Origin: Clostridia bacterium
Lineage (GTDB): Bacteria > Bacillota > Clostridia > Oscillospirales > Acutalibacteraceae
NCBI GenBank assembly: GCA_017418905.1
Contig: JAFOMO010000025.1
Location: 1 to 43,970 of the forward strand
Direction: 5' to 3'
DNA length: 43,970 bases
Shown: positions 2,768-37,232 of the stretch, in pieces
Position numbering within the stretch: the stretch's first letter is position 1
Layout of the letters: every line of letters starts with the position of its first letter
Notes under the pieces: generated by a model
Told to the model about the DNA's origin: nothing
Databases searched by the model: none
Seen by the model: the letters and a program-made list of their open reading frames with translations, nothing else
Translations under genes and position numbers: made by a program

Positions 2768-2943
2768 CTTATCATTCCTTTCTACATTTAAATATATTGT
2801 CTGTATCCATCAATATATAGTATACATTAACAAAGGTGGATTTTTCAAGTAGCACATCAAAAATAATGCAACCACAAAAGGTTATCAATTTTGCGAGCTC
2901 GTAAACGAAATAGTTCTTTGACCCAAAAGGCATTATGTTTTTC

Positions 2944-2972
2944 TTGACAAAATCAATATTATTATGTAATAT
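2944..2972 (+). promoter_or_regulatory. sigma-A-type promoter for the cysK-like gene
   Basis: TTGACA (2944-2949), 17-nt spacer ending in TG, TAATAT (2967-2972). It lies 33 nt upstream of the ATG, so the leader is too short for a riboswitch or T-box. Confidence 0.45.
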
Positions 2973-3004
2973 TAGTTTATCTGCTTTTTTTGGAGGATTT
3001 TACT

Positions 3005-3934: not shown

Positions 3935-4001
3935 ATCAGATTTAAACGACTTTTACTATCATTTTTATTACTTATTAATAGCTATTATAATTATAAAAAT
4001 T

Positions 4002-4040
4002 ATCCGATATACAAATGCTATTGTATATCGGATTATATTT
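4002..4040. terminator. bidirectional hairpin terminator downstream of cysK
   Basis: 13-bp perfect stem ATCCGATATACAA / TTGTATATCGGAT (4002-4014 / 4021-4033) with a 6-nt loop and AT/T-rich flanks on both strands. Confidence 0.5.
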
Positions 4041-4165
4041 ACATATCGTATATAGAACAATAATTATAGGTTTTAGATATAATACTGATTTCTAACATTC
4101 CCTATTCCGCTTACTATCCGATAATAAGCGTTAGAAGTTATTTTATATACTATTGCAAAATGCAT

Positions 4166-4249
4166 TTATAAATACTCCTGTGTTGGTGTTATTTTGCTTT
4201 GATTGTCCCAAGGGGTTCTTTTTCTTGACTTGCTTCTATTTTTCATCAT
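4166..4249 (-). CDS. candidate small ORF encoding a 27-aa basic peptide (MMKNRSKSRKRTPWDNQSKITPTQEYL)
   Basis: GGAGGTGA (4259-4252) lies 5 nt before the ATG (4249). An upstream promoter-like pair is TTGCGC (4305-4300), 18 nt, TATAAT (4281-4276). The ORF is below the length cutoff of the ORF track. No homology recognised. Confidence 0.25.
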   Translation of the reverse strand: MMKNRSKSRKRTPWDNQSKITPTQEYL

Positions 4250-4409
4250 CGTCACCTCCGATTGAAGTGACTTTTATTATACTATTAATTAGGTGCTGTG
4301 CGCAAGTCTGGATTTTTAGTTTTTTACTGAAAAATGCGTTATGATCAAGTAACCCACAGCTAACCTGAACAAGTTCATGAATCATTGCAGAAGAATCATT
4401 GTTTGTATA

Positions 4410-4985
4410 CTACCTGACTTCGATATGAGGTGCTGCCTGTTTGAGATATTCTCTCATTTCTGCCCATTCTCTTGCAAATTCTCTGCTGGTAGGCAAGTAA
4501 CATAGCTTATAGGTCTGACTGCCAACATCCGCCGCAAGATAACGTCTTTGAAACACAGTACCCTCAATAGTATAACGATCCATTGTAACATACAGCACGG
4601 ATATTTCATCATACAACAGCATTACGCCCAGACCCTTGCCTATTATACAATCGTTTCCCAACAATACTGTATCTTTGAATTTGAACGTACCCTTTTGCAT
4701 ATCAATAACAGCATAGTCAAGCCAGCCTTTAATTTTAAGATAGTTTACTCTTCCTGTAAAGACCCTGCGAGGGTAGTATATCATTTTGTAAAAGAAAAAT
4801 CCACCTGTACCAAACAATATTACAAACGCCATAAGTCCGGATATTATCAGATCGTCTGTATCACTTTCTTCAGAGCCGAGAAAAATCAATATAGTCAATA
4901 CAGGTTCCAATACCACAAAATATAATAATGCAAGCGAAAAAAACTTTTTTCTGCTTGTTAAGCAAAAACTTTCTAAATATTCCAT
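4410..4985 (-). CDS. 2-TM membrane protein of unknown function, paralogue-like to 6935-7531
   Basis: 191 aa with two N-terminal hydrophobic helices, then a beta-rich domain (FKFKDTVLLGNDCIIGKG...EWAEMREYLKQAAPHIEV). This is colinear with the 6935-7531 product. Confidence 0.55.
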   Translation of the reverse strand: MEYLESFCLTSRKKFFSLALLYFVVLEPVLTILIFLGSEESDTDDLIISGLMAFVILFGTGGFFFYKMIYYPRRVFTGRVNYLKIKGWLDYAVIDMQKGTFKFKDTVLLGNDCIIGKGLGVMLLYDEISVLYVTMDRYTIEGTVFQRRYLAADVGSQTYKLCYLPTSREFAREWAEMREYLKQAAPHIEVR

Positions 4986-5000
4986 TGATGTTCAACCTTC

Positions 5001-6788
5001 TTAAATTGGCTCAAAGTCTGCTGCACCGTGTTTACACAGTGGACAGATATAATCATCAGGCAATACATCTCCCTCGTAAATATATCCGCAGATCTTGCAG
5101 ACAAAGCCTTTTTTACCCTCTGACTGCGGCTTTGGCTTTACGTTGTTCTGATAATATGTATAAGTCATCGTTTCTTTCTCGGAAACTACTCTTGCTTCGG
5201 TCACACTGCATATTAACATACCGTGAGTATCGAGGTCGATATACTGCTCAACCTTCAACGACATAAAAGAGTTGATATATTTAGGTAGGAACGCAAGTCC
5301 GTTATCTGAGTACAAAGGAGTAATGTTCTCAAATTTATTATTATCTCTGCCGCTCTTGAAGCCGAAATCTTCAAACACGCTGAACGGTGCGTCTGTTGAA
5401 AGACAGTTCACGTTCATTTTTCCTGTTGACTTGATCACCTCATGGGAATAGTTTTGCTTGTTTATAGTAACTGCGATCCTGTTTGGAGTATTGGTTACCT
5501 GAGTAACAGCGTTTACAATAAGACCGTTGTCACGCTTGCCGTCATTGGAAGTAACGACATACAAACCGTAACCAATGTTGAACAAAGCTGTAAGATCGTT
5601 CTTATTTGCTGTTTCTTCATGCTGTGCGAGATAGTCCATACAAAGCTCGTTTGCAAGCTTTTCTATTTGTTCACGGCTTTCATCATTGAGGGCAGACATA
5701 ATTCTTACCGTATTTTCTGTGAAGTTCAGGTTTACGCACCCTTCAAGCATTTTACGCATTGTTTTTGCTGCAAGAGGTGCCCAAGAACCGTTTTCGATAA
5801 GTGCTATCGTCTTGTTTCTGAAATTCCTCTCGGTAAGATGTTCTATGAACTCTCTCATAAACGGGAAAATTTCTGCATTATATGTAGTTGTGGCAAGAAC
5901 TATTCTGCCATAGCGGAATGCGTCTTCAACAGCTTCTGCCATATCGCATCTTGCAAGATCGTTTACAACCACCTTCGGGCAGCCCTTTGCTGTAAGCTTT
6001 TTAGCAAGCAGCTCTACAGCAGCTTTTGTGTTACCATATACAGACGTATATGCGATAACAATACCTTCTGATTCAACAGTATATTTTGACCATGTATCGT
6101 ATAATCCTATATAGTACCCAAGATTTTCTGTAAGCACAGAACCGTGCAGAGGGCAAATGATCTTAATATCAAGCACAGACGCTTTTTTGAGCAGTGCCTG
6201 AACCTGAGCACCGTATTTACCTACAATTCCTATATAGTAGCGGCGAGCCTCGCAAGCCCAGTCCTCTTCAACGTCAAGAGCTCCGAATTTTCCGAATCCA
6301 TCAGCAGAGAACAAAACCTTATCAAGACTATCGTACGTTACTATTACCTCAGGCCAATGTACCATTGGAGCTTCAACAAAATTAAGGGTATGAGAACCTA
6401 ACTCTAAAAAATCTCCCTCACGTACAATTATTCTTCTGTCCTCAAAATCTGTGCCAAAGAAGTTTTTCATCATGGCAAAAGCTTTTTTTGATGACACAAC
6501 AACAGCATCGGGATATTTTTGCATGAATACTTTGATATTTGCCGAATGATCAGGTTCCATGTGCTGTACAACAAGATAGTCGGGTAAACGTCCGTCAAGA
6601 ACATTTTCAAGATTTGACAGCCACTCGTCTTTAAAATTGCGGTCTACCGTATCCATAACCGCAATTTTTGAATCGATGATAACATAAGAATTGTACGCCA
6701 TACCGTTAGGCACGTCATACTGACCCTCAAAAAGATCGACATTATGATCGTTTACACCTATATAGCGAATGTCATTTGTTATTTTCAT
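5001..6788 (-). CDS. multidomain flavodiiron protein: metallo-beta-lactamase-like diiron domain, flavodoxin, flavin-reductase-like domain and C-terminal rubredoxin
   Basis: Diiron-site motif HMEPDH. A flavodoxin-like block follows (VIAYTSVYGNTK). A roughly 160-aa FMN-reductase-like segment follows that. The C-terminus is CKICGYIY...CPLCKHG (rubredoxin CxxC...CxxC). I moved the start to ATG 6788 (MKITNDIRYIGV), with GGAGG 7 nt upstream. Confidence 0.85.
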   Translation of the reverse strand: MKITNDIRYIGVNDHNVDLFEGQYDVPNGMAYNSYVIIDSKIAVMDTVDRNFKDEWLSNLENVLDGRLPDYLVVQHMEPDHSANIKVFMQKYPDAVVVSSKKAFAMMKNFFGTDFEDRRIIVREGDFLELGSHTLNFVEAPMVHWPEVIVTYDSLDKVLFSADGFGKFGALDVEEDWACEARRYYIGIVGKYGAQVQALLKKASVLDIKIICPLHGSVLTENLGYYIGLYDTWSKYTVESEGIVIAYTSVYGNTKAAVELLAKKLTAKGCPKVVVNDLARCDMAEAVEDAFRYGRIVLATTTYNAEIFPFMREFIEHLTERNFRNKTIALIENGSWAPLAAKTMRKMLEGCVNLNFTENTVRIMSALNDESREQIEKLANELCMDYLAQHEETANKNDLTALFNIGYGLYVVTSNDGKRDNGLIVNAVTQVTNTPNRIAVTINKQNYSHEVIKSTGKMNVNCLSTDAPFSVFEDFGFKSGRDNNKFENITPLYSDNGLAFLPKYINSFMSLKVEQYIDLDTHGMLICSVTEARVVSEKETMTYTYYQNNVKPKPQSEGKKGFVCKICGYIYEGDVLPDDYICPLCKHGAADFEPI

Positions 6789-6859
6789 TAATATGCCTCC
6801 CTTTGAACCGTTGATACATATAAAACGGATAAAAAAAATCAACAGCTCTTTATTTTTTT

Positions 6860-6888
6860 ATTATATCATAATCAATTATAAAACACAA
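6860..6888 (-). promoter_or_regulatory. promoter of the flavodiiron gene with an AT-rich near-palindrome in the spacer
   Basis: Minus-strand reading: TTGTGT (6888-6883), 17 nt, TGATATAAT (-10 at 6865-6860). The spacer contains TTATAATTGATTATGA (6881-6866). Confidence 0.4.
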
Positions 6889-6934
6889 CAATAATTTATA
6901 CAGTATATTAAGAAATACATTTTTTTCGGTATTA

Positions 6935-7531
6935 TCATTCATAACTTTCTTCCACAAAAACAGTCTTTGTTTGGATATGTCGCTTAACCTTAATATCCGG
7001 ATTTACGGATGTAAGCTTTTTAGCTAAGTTCTCCCATTCGGACTGATAGTAATAATCCGAATGATAAAACAATATATCCATTCCGTTTTCAATTAAATAA
7101 TAATCCCATTCTATATCAGTTACTGCCCCTGTATATATGATCTTGACAATCTTCATACCATTCAGAGAAGAAATAGGCAGTACTCCTACCCTATTGAGAC
7201 CAAATATAAATTTATCTCCTATAAGGATTCCGTTTTTAAAATATGTCTCGGCATGAGTAAAATCATCTTCCGCCAGCTTTAATATACCTCGTTCTTTAAG
7301 CAGTTTCATATTCCTCTTATATTCTTTAAGTTGATAAGCATAAGAAAAATAATATTTATATACAACTATGATCCAAAGCACTATATCAATAACCACCAGC
7401 AAAGGCAGATTAGTAAAACTATCCTTTTTAAAAACGAGTAAGTATGTTAGGAATATCGGAAGGATCAAGGAAAATCCTATCTTAACGGAAGCACTGCCTA
7501 TATCGGGCTTTAAATATTTTTGTAATGTCAT
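6935..7531 (-). CDS. 2-TM membrane protein of unknown function, paralogue-like to 4410-4985
   Basis: 198 aa with two hydrophobic helices, then YFKNGILIGDKFIFG...EWENLAKKLTSVNPDIKV. Confidence 0.55.
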   Translation of the reverse strand: MTLQKYLKPDIGSASVKIGFSLILPIFLTYLLVFKKDSFTNLPLLVVIDIVLWIIVVYKYYFSYAYQLKEYKRNMKLLKERGILKLAEDDFTHAETYFKNGILIGDKFIFGLNRVGVLPISSLNGMKIVKIIYTGAVTDIEWDYYLIENGMDILFYHSDYYYQSEWENLAKKLTSVNPDIKVKRHIQTKTVFVEESYE

Positions 7532-7548
7532 AAATTTTTCACCTTTAG

Positions 7549-7587
7549 AAAAACAGTCTGCGCTGTTTGAAGTGCAGACTGTTTTTA
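7549..7587. terminator. bidirectional intrinsic terminator after the aquaporin gene
   Basis: Stem AAACAGTCTGC (7551-7561) / GCAGACTGTTT (7574-7584), flanked by an A-run and a T-run. Confidence 0.6.
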
Positions 7588-7599
7588 ATATTATGAATG

Positions 7600-8373
7600 T
7601 TACTTTTTCTTTGACGTTTTCTTTGACTGTGATGAAGATGTATTTGTCTTTGCAACGGTTTTTTCGGGTGCGGCAGTTTTTCCTGCTTTATCGAGATAAT
7701 TGTATGCCAAAGCTGCCAATGCACCGCCAACAAGCGGAGCAAGCAAAAATACCCAGACCTGAGAGAGTGCTGCAACACCGTTATTGCAGCCGAATATTGC
7801 CGATACGAAAGCTGCGCCGAAGCTGCGTGCAGGGTTTACGGAAGTTCCTGTCAAGGGCAGACCGAGCAAATGAACCAATGTAAGTGCAAAGCCTATTACA
7901 AGACCTGCGGGCTTACTGAACTCGGGTTTGCTTGTAACACCGCAAATAGCAAATACGAATACAAACGTCAATACTATCTCAGCGATTATTGCACCGAAAA
8001 GTGTTATTCCAGTTGCGGAAAGATCACCGTAACCATTTGTACCCATTCCGTTCTCTGCCAAAAAAGGTGTGCCTGCAAGCATTGCATAAAGAATGAATCC
8101 GCCTAATGTCGCACCGATAAACTGGCTTACAACATAGCCTACAAATTCTGTGGGAGTAAGCTTTTTGTTGATAAGCATAGCAAGCGATACAGCAGGGTTA
8201 ACATGACAGCCCGAAATATTGCCGACAGAATATGCCATAGCAATTATTACAAGTCCGAAAGCAAGGGCAATGCCGACATAACCTGCACCCAAACCGTTTG
8301 TTGCTGCAACACCGCAGCCGAATGTCACCAATACGGCAGTACCCAGACACTCTGCAATAAACTTTTTCATCAT
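7600..8373 (-). CDS. MIP-family channel (aquaporin/aquaglyceroporin) with a Ser/Lys-rich C-terminal tail
   Basis: Two NPA boxes (SGCHVNPAVS and GTSVNPARS) and six hydrophobic helices. The likely start is the ATGATG at 8373/8370, downstream of GGAGG. Confidence 0.85.
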   Translation of the reverse strand: MMKKFIAECLGTAVLVTFGCGVAATNGLGAGYVGIALAFGLVIIAMAYSVGNISGCHVNPAVSLAMLINKKLTPTEFVGYVVSQFIGATLGGFILYAMLAGTPFLAENGMGTNGYGDLSATGITLFGAIIAEIVLTFVFVFAICGVTSKPEFSKPAGLVIGFALTLVHLLGLPLTGTSVNPARSFGAAFVSAIFGCNNGVAALSQVWVFLLAPLVGGALAALAYNYLDKAGKTAAPEKTVAKTNTSSSQSKKTSKKK

Positions 8374-8412
8374 AAACAACATCCTCCTATCAAAATGGAA
8401 TATTATATTTAT

Positions 8413-8441
8413 ATATTAGCACAATAATACCACTTTGTAAA
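8413..8441 (-). promoter_or_regulatory. sigma-A-type promoter for the aquaporin gene
   Basis: Minus-strand reading: TTTACA (8441-8436), 17 nt ending in TGC, TAATAT (8418-8413). Confidence 0.4.
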
Positions 8442-8498
8442 TAAAAAATTGTTATAATTATGAAAAAATTTATAATTATTATATAATCATATAAATGA

Positions 8499-10571
8499 TT
8501 ACATCGTTCTCAGTATCTGAGTAATAAGAGCATAATCATTTATAAACAATTCATTTTCATTAGCAAAGATCATAAGATAGCCTATTACTATTGTAATTAT
8601 AAAGATCACAGAAAGAGTTATATAATAACCCGATCTGAATCTGTGTGTCGATCCTGCGGCTATCTCAGCAAGCTTAAATAACACTATAATCGATACTATT
8701 CCCAGCGGCAGAAGAATATCAGAGACATATCTGTAATGAACGCCCGCTTTGCACATATTCAAAAATGCAACTATTATTACGCTTATAAAGAGAGTAAGCG
8801 TAAAATTGGTTTTAAACTTATCCTCTTTTTTCAGAGCGTAAGGCAGAAACAGCGAACCCCACATTACAGGATAATTAAACGCACCCATGCTGTATGCAAG
8901 ATATGTATATCGAGGATAACCCGAAAGAACCGTATTTGGCATATCAAAATAAGGGAATTTTGTTTTAAACTCTAAGGGCTGCAAAAAATAGTGAAATATC
9001 ATAAATGGAATATACCCTACAAGTATTTTATTTGCCTCTGCTGAACTTACCGTGATCTGATAAGTAAAACCAAATTCTAAAGGCGACGAAAAACGAGCAT
9101 AGTTGTATATCATTATCGAAACTGCACCTATCATTACAGGTACACCTATGCTGCAAAGATAAAGTATTTTATGTTTAACACTTATTTCTTTATCTTTCAA
9201 AAGCCACAGCAGAGGAGCGACTGCAGTCATACAATAAACGATCGTTCCGGGGCGTGACGCTGCCATAAGCACCACAAATGCACCTGTTATCACAAAATAC
9301 AACGTCTTTTTAAGAACACTCGTTTCGTAATACGCCTTTATAAGGAAAGCAAGATAACCGGCAACCGCAGTAATAGCAGATATTACTGCTATAAAATAAA
9401 AATACTTATCGGAAGCCAATGCAAATACAGATGAAGAAAGCCATATCACAGGCAAACCTGCTATAACAAAGATAAAAGGCGTATTTTTGCAAAAACGCTT
9501 TATTACCTCGCTGTACAATATGGTCATACATATTACGGCATATATCGCAGAGATAGTGCACGCCAGAACAGAGCCGGCAACCTTATGGGTCACAAGGAAC
9601 ACGGGAAAATATACCGTAAAGACAGGAGCAACACCAAAATATGAATAGAATTTTCCGTTGTAATATGCACGATCCCACTGATCGCCCGTCAGATGCGTAC
9701 TGTCTCTTTCGCTTCTGTCGTATGGATTTTGCATTTGTTCGTATTCCTCGGGAGAAAAGTTTACATTTATATAAAGTCTGCCCTCTTTGAACGATGAAAA
9801 CAATTGCTGATATTGATCCATAGTAACCTCGTTTTCGAGAGGGTATTCGTCAAGCATCGGTTTTTCGGTAACTTTCGAGATAAAAAATGAACTTCCAATC
9901 AATACAAAGCATGCAACCCCTGCCATTGCATATAGTATCAAATGATCTTTTCTGCTGAAATGCCATTTCCACGCTTTTAAAAATATACAGACGCAAGCAG
10001 ATATTAAAAATATCAATCTGATATAGCTTATATGAAAAGCTTGCGGCGAGTTTATCTTTATACTGTCTACTTCCATTGCATAATGATTATCAGAAGGAAA
10101 TCTGACCTCTAATGTACCTATATTTCCGTATGATCTTACATTATAATAGCTTTTAACATTATTACCTACAAAAATTTGCAGATTTGCTTTATTGTAATTA
10201 AGTCCGTCTTCATAAGCAAAATTATCATCAGTATAGGCTATTTCGGGATAATAGTATTCTTCTCCGCCTTGAGAAAACTCTATACAGACGTTATACAAAG
10301 GTACGTTTACATTCTCGAATCTAATCGTACCTTTGTTTATTTTCGCTCTCGGCTTATCGGTATACCTTACTTGAATATCATCAGAGTAATGTGCGAAGCT
10401 CAGATCCAAATCACATTCTTTGACATGAGAAAACATCATTGCAATAGCTGTATAGTTTGAGATGCAGATCTCGACAATTATACACAACACAAGCGACAAT
10501 ACAAGCCTCATCTTTCTGTTTTTCAGTACATCGGACAGCTTATCGAATGATTTTTTTGTTGATTCTTTCAT
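8499..10571 (-). CDS. large polytopic membrane protein, possibly a GT-C-fold glycosyltransferase (function uncertain)
   Basis: About 690 aa. Layout is one N-terminal TM, a roughly 150-aa extracytoplasmic beta-rich domain, then at least 10 TM helices. A long loop reads YDRSERD...WDRAYYNGKFYSYFGVAP, which resembles ArnT/PMT-like loops. I moved the start from the TTG at 10604 to ATG 10571 (MKESTKK), preceded by AAGGGGA. Confidence 0.55.
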   Translation of the reverse strand: MKESTKKSFDKLSDVLKNRKMRLVLSLVLCIIVEICISNYTAIAMMFSHVKECDLDLSFAHYSDDIQVRYTDKPRAKINKGTIRFENVNVPLYNVCIEFSQGGEEYYYPEIAYTDDNFAYEDGLNYNKANLQIFVGNNVKSYYNVRSYGNIGTLEVRFPSDNHYAMEVDSIKINSPQAFHISYIRLIFLISACVCIFLKAWKWHFSRKDHLILYAMAGVACFVLIGSSFFISKVTEKPMLDEYPLENEVTMDQYQQLFSSFKEGRLYINVNFSPEEYEQMQNPYDRSERDSTHLTGDQWDRAYYNGKFYSYFGVAPVFTVYFPVFLVTHKVAGSVLACTISAIYAVICMTILYSEVIKRFCKNTPFIFVIAGLPVIWLSSSVFALASDKYFYFIAVISAITAVAGYLAFLIKAYYETSVLKKTLYFVITGAFVVLMAASRPGTIVYCMTAVAPLLWLLKDKEISVKHKILYLCSIGVPVMIGAVSIMIYNYARFSSPLEFGFTYQITVSSAEANKILVGYIPFMIFHYFLQPLEFKTKFPYFDMPNTVLSGYPRYTYLAYSMGAFNYPVMWGSLFLPYALKKEDKFKTNFTLTLFISVIIVAFLNMCKAGVHYRYVSDILLPLGIVSIIVLFKLAEIAAGSTHRFRSGYYITLSVIFIITIVIGYLMIFANENELFINDYALITQILRTM

Positions 10572-10595
10572 TTGTGATCCCCTTTTTATTATTGT

Positions 10596-10739
10596 TTTCT
10601 GCAATTCAAGCGAAGAATAATTTGTTCTGTATTAGGCACAATACCGCAGGAATACTGACGTATTTCAAGGTATTGTAACGACACACAGGGCAAATTAGGC
10701 GAGCATGAAAGTGCAAGTTATTTCTTGACGATTCCTTAG
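10596..10739 (+). repeat. intergenic structured repeat, copy A (family 1, 5'-truncated), sense strand +
   Basis: Positions 10601-10739 are the reverse complement of 36785-36923 with 134/139 identical bases. The copy contains the shared core CGCAGGAATACTGACGTATTTCAAGG (10645-10670) inside the hairpin 10637-10677. Confidence 0.85.
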
Positions 10740-10830: not shown

Positions 10831-12834
10831 ATGCTGAAAGGTCTTAAAACTTGCAAAACAAGCAATCTGAAAAATGATATTATCAGCGGTATAATTATTG
10901 CTCTCGTATCTATTCCCATATCTATGGGATATGCTCAGATAGCCGGTCTGCCTGCTCAATACGGATTATACGGTTCTGTTATACCTGTCTTGATGTTTGC
11001 TGTATTCTCGTCATCTCCGCAATACATATTCGGCGTTGACGCAGCCCCTGCTGCACTTGCGGGCGGTACGCTTGTTTCTATGGGTATTACTTTTGAGTCG
11101 CCGCAGGCAATTGAGTTTGTACCTTTAATAACATTTTTTACGGGTATATGGCTTTTGCTGTTTACTCTTCTCAGATTCGGCACGCTCACCCAATTTGTTT
11201 CTTCACCTGTAATGGGCGGCTTTATCAGTGGAATATGCGCAACGATTATACTGATGCAAACACCGAAGCTTTTCGGCGGCGGTGCAGGTATCGGAGAGCT
11301 TTTTGAGCTTATCGCTCACATTATAGCAGAATTAAAAAATAATTTCAACTTTTTGTCGCTTGTAGTATCAGTTTTTTGTATTTTTATCATTCAGCTTTTC
11401 AAAAAAATAACGCCGAAACTTCCCGTATCGGCATTTGTAATGGTTTTAGGCGCATTATTTCAGCTGATCTTTGACTACTGTGGCAAATGGAACATAAAAA
11501 CACTTACTGCAGTTTCTAAGGGTATAATTGCCCCTTCTCTTCCGACTGTGAAATACGAATATATATTGACTGCACTGTTATCTTCATTTTCAATAGCTGT
11601 TGTTATAGGCTCGGAAACACTGCTTGCAGAAAAAAACTTCGCTCAGAAAAACGGATACAAAATAGATGACAACAGCGAGCTGTTAGCTTTTTCGGTGTGT
11701 AATATATCAGCCGCATTTTTTGGTGTATGCCCCGTAAACGGCAGTGTATCGAGAACCTCAATGAACGATCAGTTCGGTGGAAAAAGTCAAATAACATCAA
11801 TCACTGCAGCACTTGTAATGACTGCTATACTTTACTTTACAACGGGATTTATTAGCTTTCTGCCTGTTCCCGTATTGACCTCTATCGTTGTATGCGCACT
11901 ATGGAGCGGTACTGAGTTTCATCTTGCAAAGAAGCTGTTTAAAAGCAGCCGAAAGGAGTTCTTCATCTTCTGCGCCGCATTTATCGGCGTTCTGATATTT
12001 GGAACTATCTACGGCGTATTAATCGGAGTTATACTTTCGTTTTTCAATATTGTTATTCGAGAAAGCAAGCCGTCTACCGCATTTCTGGGAGTAATACCGG
12101 GAAGAAATCATTTTTATAATCTCAAAACCTACGCAAAATCAAGACCTATAAAAAATGCTGTAATATACCGCTTTAAGGGCAATCTGTTTTTTGCTAATAT
12201 AGATATTTTCAGAGAAGAAATAGAACAAGCTATTCAAAGCGATACAAAATACTTTATCGTCGACGCAAGCGGAATAAGCAGTATAGACTCTACCGCAGCA
12301 CAAGCATTAGACAGTATGTACAGAGATCTGTCTGAGAAGGGTATAAAATTCTTTTTGGTAGAACATATTGCAAAGGTAAACGAAGAAATAAGAAACTACG
12401 GTTTCGGGCATATTATCGAGAGCGGCGGTGTTCGCATAACCATTACAGACGCTCTGAGCGCAGTTGGACTTAACAGACCTTTTCCATTATGCAACAAATA
12501 TAATAATTCCGAGGTAAATGAAGATACGGCGATTATACAGGAATTTGAATGGGCATTCGGCAAAGACGCTCGTCACTACATCGACATTTATACGGAAAAG
12601 ATACTGCGAAACGCAAAAGCAATTAATCCGAAAGCAGGTAATGCAGATGAAGATTTTGCCCATTTATGGGACGGCATATCTCCTATCAGCGATCATATCC
12701 TGCTTGATTACATAGAGGGCAAAACTCACGAGTTATCAGAGAAGTATGAAATAGACGAAAATATTATACGTCTTATTCTCAAGAAACACCGCAGTGATCT
12801 TGTAGAGAGTGGATACAAAGAAAACGCTAATTGA
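10831..12834 (+). CDS. SulP-family anion transporter with STAS domain and an extra roughly 120-aa C-terminal extension
   Basis: The SulP membrane core (PISMGYAQIAGLP, GVDAAPAALA, multiple TM helices) is followed by a STAS-like block (VIYRFKGNLFFANIDIF...IVDASGISSIDSTAAQAL). I moved the start to ATG 10831, with AGGTG 5 nt upstream. Confidence 0.85.
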   Translation: MLKGLKTCKTSNLKNDIISGIIIALVSIPISMGYAQIAGLPAQYGLYGSVIPVLMFAVFSSSPQYIFGVDAAPAALAGGTLVSMGITFESPQAIEFVPLITFFTGIWLLLFTLLRFGTLTQFVSSPVMGGFISGICATIILMQTPKLFGGGAGIGELFELIAHIIAELKNNFNFLSLVVSVFCIFIIQLFKKITPKLPVSAFVMVLGALFQLIFDYCGKWNIKTLTAVSKGIIAPSLPTVKYEYILTALLSSFSIAVVIGSETLLAEKNFAQKNGYKIDDNSELLAFSVCNISAAFFGVCPVNGSVSRTSMNDQFGGKSQITSITAALVMTAILYFTTGFISFLPVPVLTSIVVCALWSGTEFHLAKKLFKSSRKEFFIFCAAFIGVLIFGTIYGVLIGVILSFFNIVIRESKPSTAFLGVIPGRNHFYNLKTYAKSRPIKNAVIYRFKGNLFFANIDIFREEIEQAIQSDTKYFIVDASGISSIDSTAAQALDSMYRDLSEKGIKFFLVEHIAKVNEEIRNYGFGHIIESGGVRITITDALSAVGLNRPFPLCNKYNNSEVNEDTAIIQEFEWAFGKDARHYIDIYTEKILRNAKAINPKAGNADEDFAHLWDGISPISDHILLDYIEGKTHELSEKYEIDENIIRLILKKHRSDLVESGYKENAN

Positions 12835-13363
12835 TCTTATACGTTTTAATGAAATTCTTTGGTTCAATTCCTCGTTTTATACATTCAAGAAATATCTTTG
12901 CACAAGCTATGCTGTCACTGTCTGCTTTGTGATGATCCAATTCAATATTCAGGTAATCGCAAAGAATATTCAGCTTATGATTTTCAAGCGTTGGAAAGCA
13001 TTTTTTGCTCATACGAACAGTACAGGCGTAATCAAAATCTGATATATCTTTAATGTTATATGCATTTATACATTTTGCGAGTACACCCATATCAAATGTG
13101 GCATTGTGGGCTATCAGAATTCCATTTTTAAAAATAGGCTCAAGCTCTTTCCACACTGCCTTGAAATTTGGAGAATTTTTTACCTTTTCTTTGTTGATCC
13201 CTGTAAGCTCGATATTGAATGAAGAAAAATATGTTTCGGGGTTTACAAGAGATGAATATGTATCAACTATTTTTCCGTTTTCTATAATTGCCGCTCCTAT
13301 TGAGCTTATACGATCGTTTCTGGCGTTTGGTGTTTCTACATCAAACGCTATATATCTTTTCAT
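12827..13363 (-). CDS. stand-alone DEDDh 3'-5' exonuclease, PolC-exo/DnaQ-like
   Basis: ExoI FDVET, ExoII AHNATFDMGVL, ExoIII HHKADSDSIA. The block NHKLNILCDYLNIELDHH is colinear with the PolC exonuclease domain. The start overlaps the upstream stop (ATGA at 13360-13363). Confidence 0.8.
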   Translation of the reverse strand: MKRYIAFDVETPNARNDRISSIGAAIIENGKIVDTYSSLVNPETYFSSFNIELTGINKEKVKNSPNFKAVWKELEPIFKNGILIAHNATFDMGVLAKCINAYNIKDISDFDYACTVRMSKKCFPTLENHKLNILCDYLNIELDHHKADSDSIACAKIFLECIKRGIEPKNFIKTYKIN

Positions 13364-15942
13364 TTAAGATTCCTCTTTTCTTTGTTTTCAGATAGTATAG
13401 TCATTATACTTGCTTCGGCAGTTCTAACCTCTGACAGAAACGTCTGTGAAGGTACTCTCAATGCACCGCTTCCAAGTATTATCAGCTGTTCCATACCGTC
13501 TGATGTGACTACTCTTACCCTATTGTTCTTTGCGAGCTTATAAGCGGCTTTTTCAATGTATGTATCTGCTGTTTCGGCTTCTTTTGTATACACTATCGTT
13601 ATTCCGCCTATACGTTCTGTTTCGCCCTTGCCGCCCTTGACCTTATATGCGTCAAACACAAGTATGAGTCTGCACCCCTTATACCCCTGATAATTGCAAA
13701 GTATGTCAATAAGTCTGTCTCTTGCGGAAGAAATATCTGCTCTGGCAAGACTTTTCAACTCTTCCCAAGAAAAGATCACGTTGTAGCCGTCTACAAGAAG
13801 ATAGTCGTTACCGTCAAAGCCCGATTTTCCCGGACGCTTGTATTTCTCGAAATTTTCCGACTGATACTTCTTTGCGGAAACAGCGGTATTTTTCGGTTTT
13901 ACAGCACCGTATGTTCTCTCGAATATTTGCATTAATTCTTTATCTGAAGCTTGCGGTCGGCTTTTGTATTCGGACTCAATATTATCCTCTGCAACTTCAT
14001 CGCCGTTTTCTTTCAGTACATAGTCAAGGTGCATATACTTCTCGGTTTCCTGCCAATTTACGGTAAACCCTGCACCGTGAGAACAAAACACCGAGTCGGC
14101 AGTGTTTTCTATATCGCTGTCGGGATCATAACCGATATTCTCTATAACTTCGTCTGAATTATGACAAGGCTCATAACCGTTGAGTATGCACATAAGTCTG
14201 CCCTTGCCCTTGGTATACTTCAACACCTCACTGTGATAATTCCTCATACAATAAACAGGAGCTTTTCCTGTCAATACGGAAATATCACCTTTAATTACAG
14301 GGGGCTCAAAGCTTCCGTACATCTTCTGAATATCAGACATTGCTCTTCCTGTATTTTCCGAGGGTACTTCAAGGGTAAACTCATACACCGGCTCTAACAG
14401 AACGCTTTCAGCTTTTCTCAATCCGTGACGAACTGCACGATATACCGCCTGTCTGAAATCTCCTCCTTCGGTGTGCTTTAAGTGAGCTTTTCCCGTAAGG
14501 AGCGTTATTTCTATATCGGTAACCGGCGAACCTGTCAATACGCCCTTATGCGTTCTCTCGCTGATGTTTGTAAGAATAAGCCTTTGCCAGTTTCTGTTTA
14601 GAACATCTTCACTGCAAATGGAATTTATTATAATTCCACTATCTTTTTTACCCGGTTTAAGCCTTAAATGCACCTCGGCATAATGACGGAGCGGCTCAAA
14701 ATGACCTACTCCCTCTACTGTTGAAGCGATCGTTTCTTTATATATAATATTGCCTTGTCCGAAAGCAACTGAAATTCCGAACTTATCTTTAATAAGTGCT
14801 TTCAAGACTTCAAGCTGTATTTCTCCCATTAGCTGAATCTGTATCTCTCCTAAGGTATCGTTCCACAATACATTTAACATAGGGTCTTGATGTTCGAGTA
14901 TTCTGAGCTTATCGAGCAGCTTATGAGAATCCACTCCCTGAGGCGGTATGATCCGATATGTCAAAACAGGCGATAATACAGGCAAAGACGAGTCGTTTTC
15001 AATTCCAAGACCCTCTCCCGAACGTGCGCCCGTAATTCCTGTTACAGCACAGATAGTGCCTGCGTCTGCGGATTCCGTCCGGGTATACTTATTACCCGAA
15101 TATATGCGTATCTGATTTACCTTTTCACCTTCAGGGCTGTTTTTGGTTTTAAGTATTTGCCGAACTTGCAGACTGCCGCCTGTTATCTTCATAAATGTTA
15201 AAGGGGCGTTTTGTTCGTCCTGCGATATTTTATAGACCTTTGCGCCGAACTCAGAGGGATAATCGGGCATTTTTGTATATTTACAGAGAATATTTACAAG
15301 TGTATCTATACCCTCAAATTTCAGTGCAGAACCAAAAACACAGGGAAATACTCCTCTTTTTGATATTTCTTCGGTGATAGTATTTGAACCCACTGTAAAA
15401 TTTTCGTTATACTCTTCAAACAGATCATCACTGCACAAGGCTATATTTTCGAAGAAAATATAGCTGTTATCATTTGTAAAATCTACAATGTTGTCGCTTA
15501 AATTAAACTTTAAGCTGCCCAATACTGTATTGTTATCTTTATCTGTAAGATCCATTTTGTTTACGAACAGAAAACAAGGAATATTATACTTTTTCAATAA
15601 TTTCCAAAGAGTGGAAGTATGACTTTGAACGCCTTCTGTTCCGCTTATTACAAGAACGGCATAATCAAGCACTTGAAGTGTTCGCTCGGTTTCGGCAGAA
15701 AAATCAATATGTCCCGGAGTATCGACAAGTGTTATTTCGGTATCATCATATTTTAAAACGGCTTGTTTTGAGAATATTGTTATGCCCCTTTTCCGTTCAA
15801 GCTCATAATTATCTAAAAAAGATGTTCCGTGATCTACTCTTCCAAGCTTGTTGATACTGCCGCTGCTGTATAATAATGCCTCTGATAATGTCGTTTTGCC
15901 TGAGTCAACGTGTGCAAGTATTCCTACCGATATTCTTTTCAT
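13360..15942 (-). CDS. Tet(M)/EF-G-like translational GTPase fused to a C-terminal Rae1/YacP-type NYN ribonuclease domain
   Basis: G1 AHVDSGKT, G3 DTPGH, G4 NKMD, with colinearity to ribosomal-protection/EF-G-type factors over about 640 aa. Residues 713-860 (nt 13363-13806) read DYLLVDGYNVIF..LVFDAYKVKG..YTKEAETADTYIEKAA..VVTSDGMEQLIILGSGALRV, which matches YacP/Rae1. Confidence 0.85.
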   Translation of the reverse strand: MKRISVGILAHVDSGKTTLSEALLYSSGSINKLGRVDHGTSFLDNYELERKRGITIFSKQAVLKYDDTEITLVDTPGHIDFSAETERTLQVLDYAVLVISGTEGVQSHTSTLWKLLKKYNIPCFLFVNKMDLTDKDNNTVLGSLKFNLSDNIVDFTNDNSYIFFENIALCSDDLFEEYNENFTVGSNTITEEISKRGVFPCVFGSALKFEGIDTLVNILCKYTKMPDYPSEFGAKVYKISQDEQNAPLTFMKITGGSLQVRQILKTKNSPEGEKVNQIRIYSGNKYTRTESADAGTICAVTGITGARSGEGLGIENDSSLPVLSPVLTYRIIPPQGVDSHKLLDKLRILEHQDPMLNVLWNDTLGEIQIQLMGEIQLEVLKALIKDKFGISVAFGQGNIIYKETIASTVEGVGHFEPLRHYAEVHLRLKPGKKDSGIIINSICSEDVLNRNWQRLILTNISERTHKGVLTGSPVTDIEITLLTGKAHLKHTEGGDFRQAVYRAVRHGLRKAESVLLEPVYEFTLEVPSENTGRAMSDIQKMYGSFEPPVIKGDISVLTGKAPVYCMRNYHSEVLKYTKGKGRLMCILNGYEPCHNSDEVIENIGYDPDSDIENTADSVFCSHGAGFTVNWQETEKYMHLDYVLKENGDEVAEDNIESEYKSRPQASDKELMQIFERTYGAVKPKNTAVSAKKYQSENFEKYKRPGKSGFDGNDYLLVDGYNVIFSWEELKSLARADISSARDRLIDILCNYQGYKGCRLILVFDAYKVKGGKGETERIGGITIVYTKEAETADTYIEKAAYKLAKNNRVRVVTSDGMEQLIILGSGALRVPSQTFLSEVRTAEASIMTILSENKEKRNLK

Positions 15943-16030
15943 TTTTAAATGCCCCTATCAAAGTAATAGAATTATTGTATCATAATATCGGGAATAATTC
16001 ATTGATTTTTTATGAATACATAATACCGCT

Positions 16031-16173
16031 CTCAAATTAAAATCTTTAAGTCTTTTCGGTCTAATTTCCGCAATACATCGTCATCGACCTTGAAATACGA
16101 CAGTATTCCTGCAGTCTCTTCCTCGTCTTGCGAAAATTATACTCGAAAATGCTTATAAAGCTTTTAATCTGAG
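16031..16173 (-). repeat. intergenic structured repeat, copy C (family 2), sense strand -
   Basis: About 85% identical to 37089-37232. Terminal inverted arms are 16031-16058 and 16144-16173. The shared core lies at 16088-16114 inside the hairpin 16069-16132. Confidence 0.8.
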
Positions 16174-16181: not shown

Positions 16182-16220
16182 AAAAACAGCTCCGTTTTTG
16201 AGGAACGGAGTTGTTTTGTT
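16182..16220. terminator. bidirectional intrinsic terminator after the HAD hydrolase gene
   Basis: Stem CTCCGTT / AACGGAG (16190-16196 / 16204-16210), flanked by an A-run and TTGTTTTGTT. Confidence 0.55.
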
Positions 16221-36784: not shown

Positions 36785-36947
36785 CTAAGGAATCGTCAAG
36801 AAATAACTTGCACTTTCATGCTCGCCTCATTTGCCCTGTGTGTCGTCACAATACCTTGAAATACGTCAGTATTCCTGCGGTATTGTGCCTAACACAGAAC
36901 AAATTATTCTTCGCCTGAACTGCACAACTTATTTCTTGACAATTCCT
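36785..36947 (-). repeat. intergenic structured repeat, copy B (family 1, full length), sense strand -
   Basis: 25-27-nt inverted termini at 36788-36812 and 36921-36947 (2 mismatches, 1 bulge). The hairpin 36847-36887 carries the shared core. 134/139 bases are identical to the reverse complement of 10601-10739. Confidence 0.85.
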
Positions 36948-37088
36948 AATTCTAAACTACTATTATATTTTATCATTTTGTTTGCTACACTGTAAACAAT
37001 AATTGAGAGAATAAATATTTTTCTGCTATTTGTATATGTTTTCCCACTTCAATTTATACAAATCAAACAAACTTTATACTCATACTAC

Positions 37089-37232
37089 TATTCAATAAAA
37101 AACTTTAAATCTTTACTGTCTAATTTCCGCAATACGTCGTCATCGTCCTTGAAATACGTCAATATTCCTGCGTCCTCTTCCTCGTCTTGCGAAAATTATC
37201 CTCGTAAATCTTTTAAAGCTTTTTATTGAATA
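37089..37232 (-). repeat. intergenic structured repeat, copy D (family 2), sense strand -
   Basis: About 28-nt inverted termini at 37089-37116 and 37204-37232. The core lies at 37147-37172 inside the hairpin 37128-37191. About 85% identical to copy C. Confidence 0.8.

What the first reader, a model, noticed from the sequence alone, without database searches (positions are those of the whole stretch)
12827..15942. Tet(M)/EF-G-like ribosomal GTPase fused to a Rae1/YacP NYN endoribonuclease and translationally coupled to a DEDDh exonuclease
Seen in the sequence:
- One uninterrupted 860-codon frame.
- Residues 1 to about 640 carry G1 AHVDSGKT, G3 DTPGH and G4 NKMD. They are colinear with five-domain Tet(M)/Tet(O)/EF-G-type factors.
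- A charged linker of about 70 aa follows.
- Residues 713-860 (nt 13363-13806) read DYLLVDGYNVIF...LVFDAYKVKG...YTKEAETADTYIEKAA...VVTSDGMEQLIILGSGALRV. This is colinear with B. subtilis YacP/Rae1 and keeps all four acidic positions of the NYN/PIN-like active site (VDGYN, FDA, ETAD, TSD).
- The stop overlaps (ATGA, 13360-13363) the start of a 178-aa DEDDh 3'-5' exonuclease.

Established knowledge: Rae1/YacP is a ribosome-dependent endoribonuclease that cuts mRNA in the A site. Tet(M)/EF-G-type GTPases dock at the same A-site/GTPase-centre region.

Inference: the fusion would deliver an A-site nuclease to the ribosome under GTP control, and the coupled exonuclease could degrade the product. That would make a cut-and-degrade module, possibly for stalled-ribosome surveillance, stress-induced translation shutdown or phage defence. 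I know of no characterised protein with this architecture. A copy of the structured repeat (16031-16173) sits in the upstream region of this operon.
Basis: partly seen in the sequence, partly recalled or inferred. Interest (0 to 1): 0.8.

Follow-up and report, generated by a model that had tools for sequence, protein, structure and literature searches.

The report
Ribosomal GTPase fused to Rae1-type nuclease
This gene really does join an EF-G/Tet-like ribosome-binding GTPase to a Rae1-type RNA-cutting domain; the fusion is common in gut and rumen Clostridia, was noted in two surveys but never tested, and could show how bacteria find and cut mRNA on stalled ribosomes.

Summary
A single 860-codon ORF (13360-15942, minus strand) encodes a five-domain translational GTPase, a disordered linker of about 70 aa, and a YacP/Rae1 NYN domain with all four catalytic acids. 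A 178-aa DEDDh exonuclease gene overlaps its stop codon (ATGA).

It is not an artefact or a one-off. More than 150 clusters at 50% identity carry the fusion, and its tree tracks Clostridia taxonomy in ordinary chromosomal contexts. The architecture is also not new: surveys in 2015 and 2017 recorded it, without testing it.

New here:
- The GTPase body is a separate subfamily, about 30% identical to Tet(M)/Tet(O) and below NCBI's Tet cutoff. It lacks the Tet loop motif.
- The body also exists unfused across Lactobacillaceae.
- Residues specific to the fused clade cluster at the domain IV tip.

The exonuclease neighbour is confined to a few lineages (5 of 56 loci) and is of a DNA-acting type. The upstream "structured repeat" is an inserted dispersed hairpin element.

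Best reading: a Rae1-type nuclease for stalled ribosomes, targeted by its own GTPase. Untested.

The parts
13360..15942 (-). Whole fusion gene (860 aa plus stop): Tet/EF-G-like translational GTPase, linker, Rae1/YacP NYN nuclease
   Evidence: ORF. Pfam and NCBIfam. Full-length homologues.
15274..15942 (-). G domain (residues 1-223) with G1 AHVDSGKT, switch I RGITI, G3 DTPGH (catalytic His78), G4 NKMD and G5 GSAL
   Evidence: GTP_EFTU 8e-51. The motif residues are invariant in 48 homologues.
15028..15246 (-). Domain II (residues 233-305)
   Evidence: EF-G_D2.
14758..14973 (-). Domain III (residues 324-395)
   Evidence: EFG_III.
14407..14751 (-). Domain IV (residues 398-512), the most conserved part of the family
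   Evidence: EFG_IV 1.2e-17. Mean column conservation is 0.80 against 0.65-0.74 for the other domains. On its own it retrieves EF-G and not TetM from the PDB.
14434..14493 (-). Domain IV tip loop (residues 484-503, GKAHLKHTEGGDFRQAVYRA). It holds family-specific invariant residues. H487 aligns with the EF-G tip histidine. TetM has GLYYSPVSTP here.
   Evidence: Six of the 17 residues specific to the fused clade lie here (P about 9e-6).
14155..14403 (-). Domain V (residues 514-596)
   Evidence: EFG_C 1.5e-16.
14023..14154 (-). Conserved C-terminal element of the GTPase body (residues 597-640). Together with C593/H594 just upstream in domain V (nt 14161-14166), its C620 and H622 form a possible metal-binding Cys/His quartet.
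   Evidence: Invariant columns. Conserved in the unfused Lactobacillaceae proteins, which end right after it. Small beta-hairpin plus helix in the model.
13807..14022 (-). Flexible linker (residues 641-712). Acidic then basic, disordered, with one conserved short helix (667-678; E669, I673, F674 and Y678 invariant).
   Evidence: pLDDT below 50 at 644-666 and 682-708. Conservation 0.475. Length is 64-120 aa in 98 homologues and never shorter than 64.
13363..13806 (-). Rae1/YacP-type NYN endonuclease domain (residues 713-860) with D718, D764, D793 and D815
   Evidence: NYN_YacP 2.4e-48. 5MQ8/5MQ9 at E 1e-26. Catalytic residues invariant.
12827..13363 (-). 178-aa DEDDh (DnaQ-like) 3'-5' exonuclease gene. 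Its start overlaps the fusion's stop codon (ATGA). It is a neighbour only in a few lineages and probably not part of the conserved unit.
   Evidence: RNase_T 1.2e-24. PolC exonuclease 2P1J and DinG exonuclease 8ZEF are the best PDB hits. Adjacent in only 5 of 56 loci.
13371..13377 (-). Shine-Dalgarno-like AAGAGGA for the exonuclease gene, inside the end of the fusion ORF
   Evidence: Sequence.
15974..15982 (-). Putative extended -10 promoter element (TGaTACAAT) for the fusion gene. Inferred only.
   Evidence: Sequence. The same TATGATACAAT is conserved in the nearest relative L001. The consensus scan did not report it.
16023..16166 (.). 144-nt imperfect-palindrome repeat inserted between the terminator of the upstream gene and the promoter. 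Not part of the conserved unit.
   Evidence: Second copy at 37082-37225, 82% identical. Hairpin of -53 kcal/mol, z = -6.9. Absent from the same spacer in L001.
16190..16210 (-). Intrinsic terminator of the upstream Cof-type HAD gene, which sets the 5' limit of the transcription unit
   Evidence: The HAD gene is identified.

Best explanation
The gene encodes a ribosome-targeted mRNA endonuclease. It is a Rae1-type NYN nuclease permanently tethered to its own EF-G/Tet-like translational GTPase.

Proposed mechanism:
1. The GTP-bound five-domain body docks at the ribosomal factor-binding site, as all five-domain factors of this class do.
2. Its highly conserved, family-specific domain IV tip reads the state of the decoding centre of a stalled ribosome.
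3. The NYN domain sits on a flexible tether that is always at least 64 residues long. It cuts the mRNA at the edge of that ribosome or at a collision interface, which is where stand-alone Rae1 is now known to cut.
4. GTP hydrolysis then releases the factor. The truncated mRNA feeds ribosome rescue (trans-translation) and decay.

On this reading it is the Clostridia version of the Rae1 pathway for stalled and collided ribosomes, with ribosome recognition built into the same polypeptide.

Shown here: the architecture, the intact GTPase and nuclease catalytic residues, wide vertical conservation, distinctness from tetracycline-protection proteins, the existence of an unfused sister form, and the clustering of fused-clade-specific residues at the domain IV tip.

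Inferred, not shown: ribosome binding, the RNA substrate, where the cut falls, and GTP gating.
For: - Domains and catalytic residues are intact and invariant.
- The five-domain fold matches EF-G, EF-2 and TetM.
- The family is large and old: more than 150 clusters at 50% identity, nearly all full-length fusions. It is present in isolate genomes of Faecalicatena, Coprococcus, Agathobacter, Monoglobus and Bacilliculturomica.
- The protein tree tracks genus and family, and the genomic contexts are housekeeping.
- Domain IV is the most conserved region. Nine of the 17 residues specific to the fused clade lie in domain IV, six of them in its tip loop (P = 0.0012 and 9e-6). This suggests that decoding-centre recognition co-adapted with the nuclease.
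- The linker is disordered, varies in length and is never shorter than 64 aa. That fits a tether and not a rigid dock.
- Rae1 is a translation-dependent mRNA endonuclease that acts at stalled or collided ribosomes and feeds tmRNA rescue (PMC12407103; PMC13622287; PMC6613710).
- In Monoglobus, the rlmB locus lacks the usual stand-alone yacP, and the only NYN_YacP hit in any Monoglobus record is the fusion.
Against: - There is no experimental datum for any member of the family.
- The GTPase body exists without a nuclease throughout Lactobacillaceae. It therefore has some function of its own that is unknown and may not involve mRNA cleavage.
- The geometry is unresolved. Rae1 cuts about 12 nt 5' of the A-site codon, on the far side of the 30S neck from the factor site. 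In tight disomes, bL9 of the leading ribosome blocks the factor site of the queueing ribosome (PMC10897467). The body would therefore have to sit on the leading ribosome and the tether would have to reach round it.
- The fused and unfused clades are also different taxa, so lineage alone could explain the clade-specific residues.
- The 'sole Rae1 homologue' evidence rests on one species whose genome coverage in PLSDB is unknown.
- The model's inter-domain confidence is modest (pTM 0.53).
Confidence: 0.5

Rival explanations
1. It is a tetracycline (or other antibiotic) ribosomal protection protein that has gained a nuclease domain, as Atkinson 2015 suggested. The body would dislodge the drug from the A site and the NYN domain would add an RNase-based twist to resistance.
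For: The best full-length PDB and NCBIfam matches are TetM, TetO and tet_protect. PGAP names the Agathobacter rectalis copy 'TetM/TetW/TetO/TetS family tetracycline resistance ribosomal protection protein'. The idea is raised in PMC4342817.
Against: - The tet_protect score is 446.6 bits against a cutoff of 775, and every specific Tet model falls far below its cutoff.
- Identity to Tet(M), Tet(O), Tet(S) and TetB(P) is only 30-33%, against 48-58% within its own subfamily.
- The TetM loop 504-GLYYSPVSTP-513 is replaced by the invariant GKAHLKHTEG.
- Domain IV alone finds EF-G and not TetM.
- The gene is chromosomal, vertically inherited and in housekeeping contexts. It is not on conjugative elements as the tet genes are.
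Confidence: 0.07
2. The nuclease targets the ribosome's own RNA or tRNA and not mRNA. It would be a GTPase-delivered rRNA processing, quality-control or ribosome-inactivation factor, cutting for example near h44, the 16S 3' end or the sarcin-ricin loop.
For: The body places the NYN domain close to rRNA. Stand-alone yacP sits in an operon with the rRNA enzymes mrnC and rlmB (PMC5499597), which led early authors to propose rRNA/tRNA maturation. The unfused GTPase shows that the body has a ribosome-directed function of its own.
Against: All validated Rae1 substrates are translated mRNAs (PMC12067863; PMC12407103). The fused NYN domain is a close Rae1 homologue (E 1e-26, 43-47% identical) with the same catalytic set. 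A long flexible tether is an odd way to aim at a fixed rRNA site.
Confidence: 0.15
3. One reading: a two-gene 'cut-and-degrade' module, possibly for phage defence or stress shutdown. The fusion would cut A-site mRNA and the translationally coupled DEDDh exonuclease would degrade the product.
For: The ATGA overlap and a good SD show co-expression in this genome. A distant DEDDh exonuclease is also adjacent to the fusion in Faecalimonas, on the other side. The exonuclease hits a generic DEDDh defence-associated model in PADLOC. In B. subtilis, 3' exonucleases do clear the upstream fragments left by Rae1 cleavage.
Against: - The neighbour is present in only 5 of 56 loci. In the nearest relative it is frameshifted and does not overlap.
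- Its closest solved relatives are the DNA-acting PolC and DinG exonuclease domains.
- The fusion itself has no PADLOC hit.
- No defence island or mobile context was found. The 'phage' hits are unverified contigs full of bacterial housekeeping genes.
- The A-site premise has been superseded.
Confidence: 0.05
4. The single frame is an assembly or annotation artefact that joins two separate genes.
For: None found. A few database representatives are truncated or chimeric, which shows that such artefacts do occur in metagenome gene calls.
Against: The same uninterrupted architecture recurs in thousands of independent assemblies, including isolate and complete genomes. The linker carries conserved in-frame motifs.
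Confidence: 0.01

Closest known systems
Rae1/YacP of Bacillus subtilis (ribosome-associated endoribonuclease; PDB 5MQ8/5MQ9)
   Same: The NYN_YacP fold and all four catalytic acids are shared, at 43-47% identity over about 130 residues. Both are expected to act on ribosome-engaged mRNA.
   Different: Rae1 is a stand-alone protein of about 170 aa encoded next to rlmB. Its ribosome association is transient, and how it recognises ribosomes is unknown. Here the domain is the C-terminal module of an 860-aa GTPase, joined at Rae1's N-terminus by a tether of at least 64 aa. The gene is not in the rlmB operon.
Tet(M)/Tet(O) ribosomal protection proteins (PDB 3J9Y, 4V6V)
   Same: Five-domain, EF-G-like architecture with a short G' region. 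The match is colinear over residues 1-591.
   Different: Identity is about 30% and the score is below the NCBIfam Tet cutoffs. The Tet domain IV loop motif is absent. The C-terminal element is different and conserved. The gene is chromosomal and vertically inherited, not mobile. It also carries the extra linker and nuclease.
Unfused 'Tet-like/EF-G-like' GTPases of Lactobacillaceae (e.g. L. salivarius WP_283475094, 639 aa), uncharacterised
   Same: Same GTPase subfamily. They are 48% identical over the whole body and share the EGVGHFEPLRHY.EVHL and GGDFRQA loops and the PCHN...SVFC.HGAG..V.W tail.
   Different: They end where the fusion's linker begins and have no nuclease. At the domain IV tip they carry S, V, S, V, E and W where the fused clade has H487, K489, T491, E492, Q498 and Y501.
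SmrB (E. coli) and Cue2/NONU-1 (eukaryotes): collision-dependent mRNA endonucleases
   Same: The proposed job is analogous: cut mRNA at stalled or collided ribosomes to trigger rescue and decay.
   Different: Those enzymes use an unrelated SMR nuclease fold, recognise the disome interface directly and have no GTPase. The fusion would use a translation-factor body for recognition.
Dom34/Pelota-Hbs1 (eukaryotes, archaea): GTPase-delivered A-site probe of stalled ribosomes
   Same: The concept is shared: a translational GTPase brings a surveillance module to a stalled ribosome (established knowledge, not tested here).
   Different: That system has two separate proteins, an eRF1-like module without accepted nuclease activity, and an EF-Tu-type GTPase rather than an EF-G-type one.

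Membership tests
Translational GTPase, EF-G/Tet five-domain class | G1-G5 motifs, including the catalytic His of DxxGH | tested here: met
   AHVDSGKT, RGITI, DTPGH, NKMD and GSAL are present and invariant.
Translational GTPase, EF-G/Tet five-domain class | Domains II, III, IV and V in order, with an EF-G-like fold | tested here: met
   Pfam EF-G_D2, EFG_III, EFG_IV and EFG_C. Foldseek matches to EF-G, EF-2 and TetM at E down to 1e-52.
Translational GTPase, EF-G/Tet five-domain class | Ribosome-dependent GTPase activity | not testable with these tools
   Needs biochemistry.
Tetracycline ribosomal protection proteins (Tet(M)/(O)/(W)/(Q), Otr(A)) | Score above the curated NCBIfam/AMRFinder cutoff for tet_protect | tested here: not met
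   446.6 bits against a cutoff of 775. The M/W, Q, M and Otr(A) models score 264-306 bits against cutoffs of 900-1425.
Tetracycline ribosomal protection proteins (Tet(M)/(O)/(W)/(Q), Otr(A)) | Tet-type domain IV loop III (TetM 504-GLYYSPVSTP-513), which contacts the tetracycline site. The functional role is from my own knowledge and from PMC4342817. | tested here: not met
   The query and the whole family have GKAHLKHTEG at this position. Domain IV alone does not retrieve TetM at E <= 1e-3.
Tetracycline ribosomal protection proteins (Tet(M)/(O)/(W)/(Q), Otr(A)) | Confers tetracycline resistance | not testable with these tools
   Needs MIC assays. The genomic context (chromosomal, vertical) argues against it.
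Rae1/YacP NYN endoribonucleases (PF05991) | NYN_YacP profile match above the gathering score | tested here: met
   164.7 bits against 24.6, model positions 1-146 of 166.
Rae1/YacP NYN endoribonucleases (PF05991) | Four conserved acidic active-site residues | tested here: met
   D718, D764, D793 and D815 align with the Rae1 motifs in 5MQ8/5MQ9 and are invariant.
Rae1/YacP NYN endoribonucleases (PF05991) | Stand-alone protein of about 170 aa in the (mrnC)-rlmB-yacP-sigH neighbourhood | tested here: not met
   The domain is the C-terminal module of an 860-aa protein. Its neighbours are a SulP permease, an exonuclease and a HAD hydrolase. The canonical locus is shown.
Rae1/YacP NYN endoribonucleases (PF05991) | Translation-dependent mRNA cleavage at stalled ribosomes | not testable with these tools
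   Needs in vivo or in vitro assays like those in PMC12407103.
Tet-like GTPase + NYN_YacP fusion family of Clostridia (recorded in PMC4342817 and PMC5499597) | Single polypeptide: TetM-like five-domain GTPase followed by a C-terminal NYN_YacP domain, in Clostridia | tested here: met
DEDDh (DnaQ-like) 3'-5' exonucleases (the neighbouring gene) | RNase_T/DnaQ profile match and Exo I-III motifs with H-x4-D | tested here: met
   RNase_T 1.2e-24. The sequence shows FDVET, HNATFD and HKADSD. PolC and DinG exonuclease domains are the best PDB hits.
Anti-phage defence systems (PADLOC models) | Match of the fusion protein to any defence-system model, or a defence-island context | tested here: not met
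   The fusion has 0 PADLOC hits. Its neighbours are metabolic and transport genes.

The most novel reading that the evidence does not exclude
The fusion is a bacterial, single-polypeptide counterpart of GTPase-guided no-go decay. An EF-G-like GTPase would recognise the stalled ribosome and license a Rae1 nuclease to cut the mRNA, which starts tmRNA rescue in Clostridia. By Rosetta-stone logic, the unfused sister GTPase of Lactobacillaceae would be the missing ribosome-recognition partner of stand-alone Rae1 in those bacteria. This would answer the open question of how Rae1 finds its ribosomes. Because the body should lock onto ribosomes with non-hydrolysable GTP, it would also give a way to capture a Rae1 domain on the ribosome for cryo-EM.
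Probability: 0.25. Interest if true: 0.8.

Novelty: new member of a known kind. Interest (0 to 1): 0.6.

Why it matters
- Rae1 was recently placed at the centre of a rescue pathway for collided ribosomes in Gram-positive bacteria. How it recognises stalled or collided ribosomes is stated to be unknown, and no ribosome-bound structure exists because binding is transient (PMC13622287).
- A natural, widespread protein ties a Rae1 domain to a GTPase that should lock onto the ribosome with non-hydrolysable GTP. That gives a direct experimental handle on the question.
- The family is abundant in major human-gut and rumen Clostridia (Agathobacter rectalis, Coprococcus, Dorea, Faecalicatena, rumen Ruminococcus), where RNA decay and ribosome rescue are almost unstudied.
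- These genes, and their unfused Lactobacillaceae relatives, are annotated variously as 'TetM/TetW/TetO/TetS tetracycline resistance protein', 'TetM from Tn916' or 'elongation factor G'. This can inflate resistome counts.

Tried and rejected
- Rfam on the whole window at gathering thresholds gave 0 hits. Around the upstream repeat at E <= 1, only chance-level hits appeared. No known leader or riboswitch lies upstream.
- The upstream repeat is not a conserved regulatory leader. It is missing from the same spacer in the 87%-identical relative.
- A conserved operon partner was sought by clustering the neighbours in 56 loci. None was present in more than 11 loci.
- Plasmid carriage was rejected. 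The 'plasmid' records that hold the fusion carry secA, prfB and map, so they are chromosome pieces.
- Phage carriage was rejected. The 'Bacteriophage sp.' records are unverified contigs with dapF and other housekeeping genes.
- PADLOC gave no hit for the fusion.
- The idea that the body docks on the trailing (collided) ribosome was considered and downgraded. bL9 of the leading ribosome blocks that factor site.
- The idea that fusions systematically lack Rae1's C-terminal tail (site of the R166P allele) was rejected. Tail length is bimodal, about 38-47 or 64-78 residues after the TSD Asp.
- A few representatives lacking the NYN domain (P0311, P0379, P0389, and P0358 chimeric with an aminotransferase) were examined. 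Most look like truncations or gene-call artefacts, but P0389 resembles the real unfused form.
- Co-occurrence with a stand-alone Rae1 could be tested in only one species (Monoglobus).
- The papers by Condon 2018 (PMC6152456), Leroy 2017 (PMC5412759) and Saito 2022 (PMC8934283) could not be read. Several literature searches failed before succeeded.
- The 718-aa gene after rlmB in Vescimonas has no Pfam match.
Full report

Yes. The ORF list shows an uninterrupted 860-codon ORF at 13360..15942 on the minus strand and a 178-codon ORF at 12827..13363 on the same strand. Reading the junction gives ...AAG AGG AAT CTT AAA TGA. The exonuclease ATG is at 13363-13361 and the TGA of the long ORF at 13362-13360, so the ATGA overlap is real. 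A Shine-Dalgarno-like AAGAGGA lies 7 nt upstream of that ATG.

Pfam finds these domains in the long protein:
- GTP_EFTU, residues 3-223, 8e-51
- EF-G_D2, 233-305
- EFG_III, 324-395
- EFG_IV, 398-512
- EFG_C, 514-596
- NYN_YacP, 715-857, 2.4e-48

The short protein matches RNase_T (1.2e-24). The NYN part aligns with the B. subtilis YacP/Rae1 crystal structures 5MQ8/5MQ9 at E 1e-26. The four acidic residues D718, D764, D793 and D815 are invariant in 48 homologues. An AlphaFold2 model built on that alignment (mean pLDDT 76.8, pTM 0.53) gives confident globular domains and disorder at 644-666 and 682-708.

**2. Artefact or one-off?**

Neither.
- A word-indexed search returned 8000 hits. The best 120 are all about 860 aa and all carry PF05991.
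- An exhaustive HMMER scan of 1.84 billion cluster representatives listed 150 best hits. Nearly all are full-length fusions of 830-1156 aa at 42-58% identity.
- A scan of one genome per species found 55 loci. They include rumen Ruminococcus and Oscillospiraceae MAGs, and isolates of Faecalicatena contorta and F. fissicatena, Coprococcus and Bacilliculturomica.
- Annotated records of Monoglobus pectinilyticus and Agathobacter rectalis also carry the fusion.
- A neighbour-joining tree of 52 proteins groups by genus and family. This is the pattern of a vertically inherited chromosomal gene.

**3. Is the architecture new?**

No. [quoted passage not shown] A search for papers holding both NYN and TetM returns only these two relevant papers. 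The recent Rae1 papers do not mention the fusion. The fusion is therefore recorded but uncharacterised.

**4. What is the GTPase body?**

It is not a tetracycline protection protein by the tests available.
- NCBIfam tet_protect scores 446.6 bits against a cutoff of 775. All specific Tet models fall far below their cutoffs.
- Against annotated plasmid genes, the body is 30-33% identical to Tet(M), Tet(O), Tet(S) and TetB(P), and 25-26% to EF-G. It is 58% identical to the Monoglobus fusion.
- The TetM loop 504-GLYYSPVSTP-513 is replaced by GKAHLKHTEG. This loop belongs to the domain IV tip, which in Tet proteins displaces the drug (PMC4342817).
- Domain IV alone retrieves EF-G (E about 1e-6) and not TetM. 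The invariant H487 aligns with the EF-G tip histidine (T. thermophilus H573).
- Domain IV is the most conserved part of the family: mean column conservation 0.80, against 0.74 for NYN, 0.65-0.69 for the other body domains and 0.475 for the linker.

**5. An unfused sister form.**

The body is 48% identical to a 639-aa L. salivarius megaplasmid protein that has no NYN domain. This protein keeps the family-specific loops EGVGHFEPLRHY.EVHL and GGDFRQA. It also keeps the whole C-terminal element PCHN...SVFC.HGAG..V.W. It ends exactly where the fusion's disordered linker begins.

Homologues of this unfused form (640-665 aa) are chromosomal and widespread in Lactobacillaceae: Companilactobacillus, Levilactobacillus, Paucilactobacillus, Pediococcus and Loigolactobacillus. 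They are annotated inconsistently as EF-G, TetM or GTP-binding protein.

The body is therefore a distinct translational-GTPase subfamily with two architectures.

I compared 99 fused with 41 non-redundant unfused sequences. Seventeen positions are invariant in the fused clade and different in the unfused clade. Nine lie in domain IV (binomial P = 0.0012). Six lie in the 20-residue tip loop (P about 9e-6): H487, K489, T491, E492, Q498 and Y501. The caveat is that the two clades are also different taxa.

**6. The neighbours.**

Clustering the flanking ORFs of 56 loci found no neighbour in more than 11 loci. The commonest are a methyltransferase, AspRS, a HAD hydrolase and glycerol kinase, each confined to one lineage.

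The DEDDh exonuclease is adjacent in only five loci:
- In the window and its 87%-identical relative L001 it lies downstream.
- In three Faecalimonas loci it lies upstream, at about 30% identity.
- In L001 it is about 20 nt away, does not overlap, and carries a frameshift.

Its closest solved relatives are the PolC and DinG exonuclease domains, which are DNA-acting DnaQ-type enzymes.

The window context is ordinary: a SulP permease, a Cof-type HAD hydrolase, an amino-acid ABC transporter, a MIP channel and a flavodiiron protein. The fusion has no PADLOC hit. The 'plasmid' and 'phage' records that carry the fusion are chromosome pieces or unverified contigs with housekeeping genes.

The coupling to the exonuclease is thus real in this genome, but it is not a conserved feature of the system.

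**7. The upstream 'structured repeat'.**

The 144-nt element at 16023-16166 has a second copy at 37082-37225 (82% identical). It folds into one long imperfect hairpin (-53 kcal/mol, z = -6.9). In both places it follows a terminator. In L001 the same terminator-to-promoter spacer lacks it, while the promoter-proximal sequence including TATGATACAAT is conserved. It is an inserted, dispersed palindromic element and not part of the operon's regulation.

**8. Mechanism.**

That model came from docking and has been withdrawn by its authors. [quoted passage not shown] A 2026 preprint shows Rae1-dependent tmRNA tagging after ribosome collisions. It states that no ribosome-bound Rae1 structure exists and that the mode of recognition is unknown (PMC13622287).

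The revision removes a steric problem. Domain IV of EF-G/Tet-type factors occupies the A site, so the body and the nuclease could never have shared it.

My best reading has these steps:
1. The GTP-form body docks at the factor site of a stalled ribosome.
2. Its specialised domain IV tip checks the decoding centre.
3. The NYN domain, on a tether that is 64-120 aa long in 98 homologues and never shorter, cuts the mRNA at the ribosome's edge or at the collision interface.
4. GTP hydrolysis releases the factor.

In disomes, bL9 of the leading ribosome blocks the factor site of the queueing ribosome (PMC10897467). The leading, stalled ribosome is therefore the more likely docking site.

One further hint comes from Monoglobus. 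Its rlmB locus lacks the usual adjacent yacP, and the only NYN_YacP match in any Monoglobus record is the fusion. In Bacilli, C. difficile, Acetoanaerobium and Collinsella, by contrast, a stand-alone NYN gene sits beside rlmB. This suggests that the fusion is the lineage's only Rae1. It rests on one species whose genome coverage in the collection is unknown.

All steps beyond architecture and conservation are inference. I put the confidence at 0.5.

**9. Rivals.**
- Tetracycline protection with an added nuclease: 0.07. It fails the Tet cutoffs and the loop motif, and the genomic context is wrong.
- An rRNA- or tRNA-directed nuclease: 0.15. This cannot be excluded by sequence.
The partner is not conserved and is of a DNA-acting type.
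- Assembly artefact: about 0.01.

**10. Verdict.**

This gene is a new member of a family that was recorded in 2015 and 2017 but never studied.

Its interest lies in its fit to a current open question, namely how Rae1 recognises stalled or collided ribosomes, and in the experimental handle it offers. It also exposes systematic mis-annotation of this GTPase subfamily as tetracycline resistance genes or as EF-G. Interest: 0.6.

Noticed in passing
window 16023-16166 and 37082-37225; partial copies of the core at 10643-10671 and 36853-36881; L001 2444-2472 and 13478-13511: A dispersed palindromic repeat of about 144 nt forms one long hairpin (-53 kcal/mol, z = -6.9). In both full copies it follows a terminator. 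It is absent from the orthologous spacer in the nearest relative, so it behaves like a small mobile (MITE-like) intergenic element. It has no Rfam match.
   Followed up: partly
window 14023-14166 (residues 593-640 of the fusion): C593, H594, C620 and H622 are invariant or nearly so in both the fused and the unfused GTPases (PCHN...FC.HGAG). They may form a zinc-binding site in a family-specific C-terminal element that no Pfam model covers.
   Followed up: partly
window 13909-13944 (residues 667-678, within the linker): A short helix, ELMQIFERTYG, sits inside the otherwise variable, disordered linker. E669, I673, F674 and Y678 are invariant. It may be a docking motif, but its partner is unknown.
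   Followed up: no
L062 (L. salivarius NZ_CP114510.1) 2735-6920: The unfused GTPase gene lies next to a divergent ArsR/SmtB metalloregulator, a DsbA gene, an rpsN (S14) paralogue and a 'putative metal homeostasis protein'. Together with the Cys/His tail, this hints at a link to metal (zinc) status. It was seen in one species only.
   Followed up: no
L057 (A. rectalis NZ_CP143948.1) 7093-9894; L062 5001-6920; names listed: Members of this subfamily are annotated as 'TetM/TetW/TetO/TetS tetracycline resistance ribosomal protection protein', 'TetM from transposon Tn916', 'TetO' or 'elongation factor G'. They score below the curated Tet cutoffs, so this is a likely source of false resistance-gene calls in gut metagenomes.
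   Followed up: partly
L001 8585-9117: In the 87%-identical relative, the exonuclease gene is split across two frames near codon 62 and is separated from the fusion's stop codon by about 20 nt. This is either a pseudogene or a MAG sequencing error.
   Followed up: partly
L060 (Monoglobus), L061 (Vescimonas), H53 (Subdoligranulum): In these Clostridia records, rlmB is not followed by a stand-alone yacP, unlike in Bacilli and C. difficile. In Vescimonas, rlmB is followed by a 718-aa protein with no Pfam match.
   Followed up: partly
window 8499-10604 (-) and 6935-7531 (-): Two sizeable ORFs (701 aa and 198 aa) downstream of the region have no Pfam match at E <= 1e-5.
   Followed up: no
P0358, P0311, P0286, P0292 (family representatives): There are variant architectures among the homologues. 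One is joined to an Aminotran_4 domain and is probably a gene-call chimera. One has an unassigned C-terminus of about 260 aa in place of NYN. Two have large insertions in the G domain (1069-1156 aa).
   Followed up: partly
fusion family, C-terminal tail after the TSD motif: Tail length after the last catalytic Asp is bimodal: about 38-47 residues, as in the window protein, or 64-78 residues. Some lineages therefore keep a full Rae1-like C-terminal tail (the region of the B. subtilis R166P loss-of-function allele) and others have lost it.
   Followed up: partly
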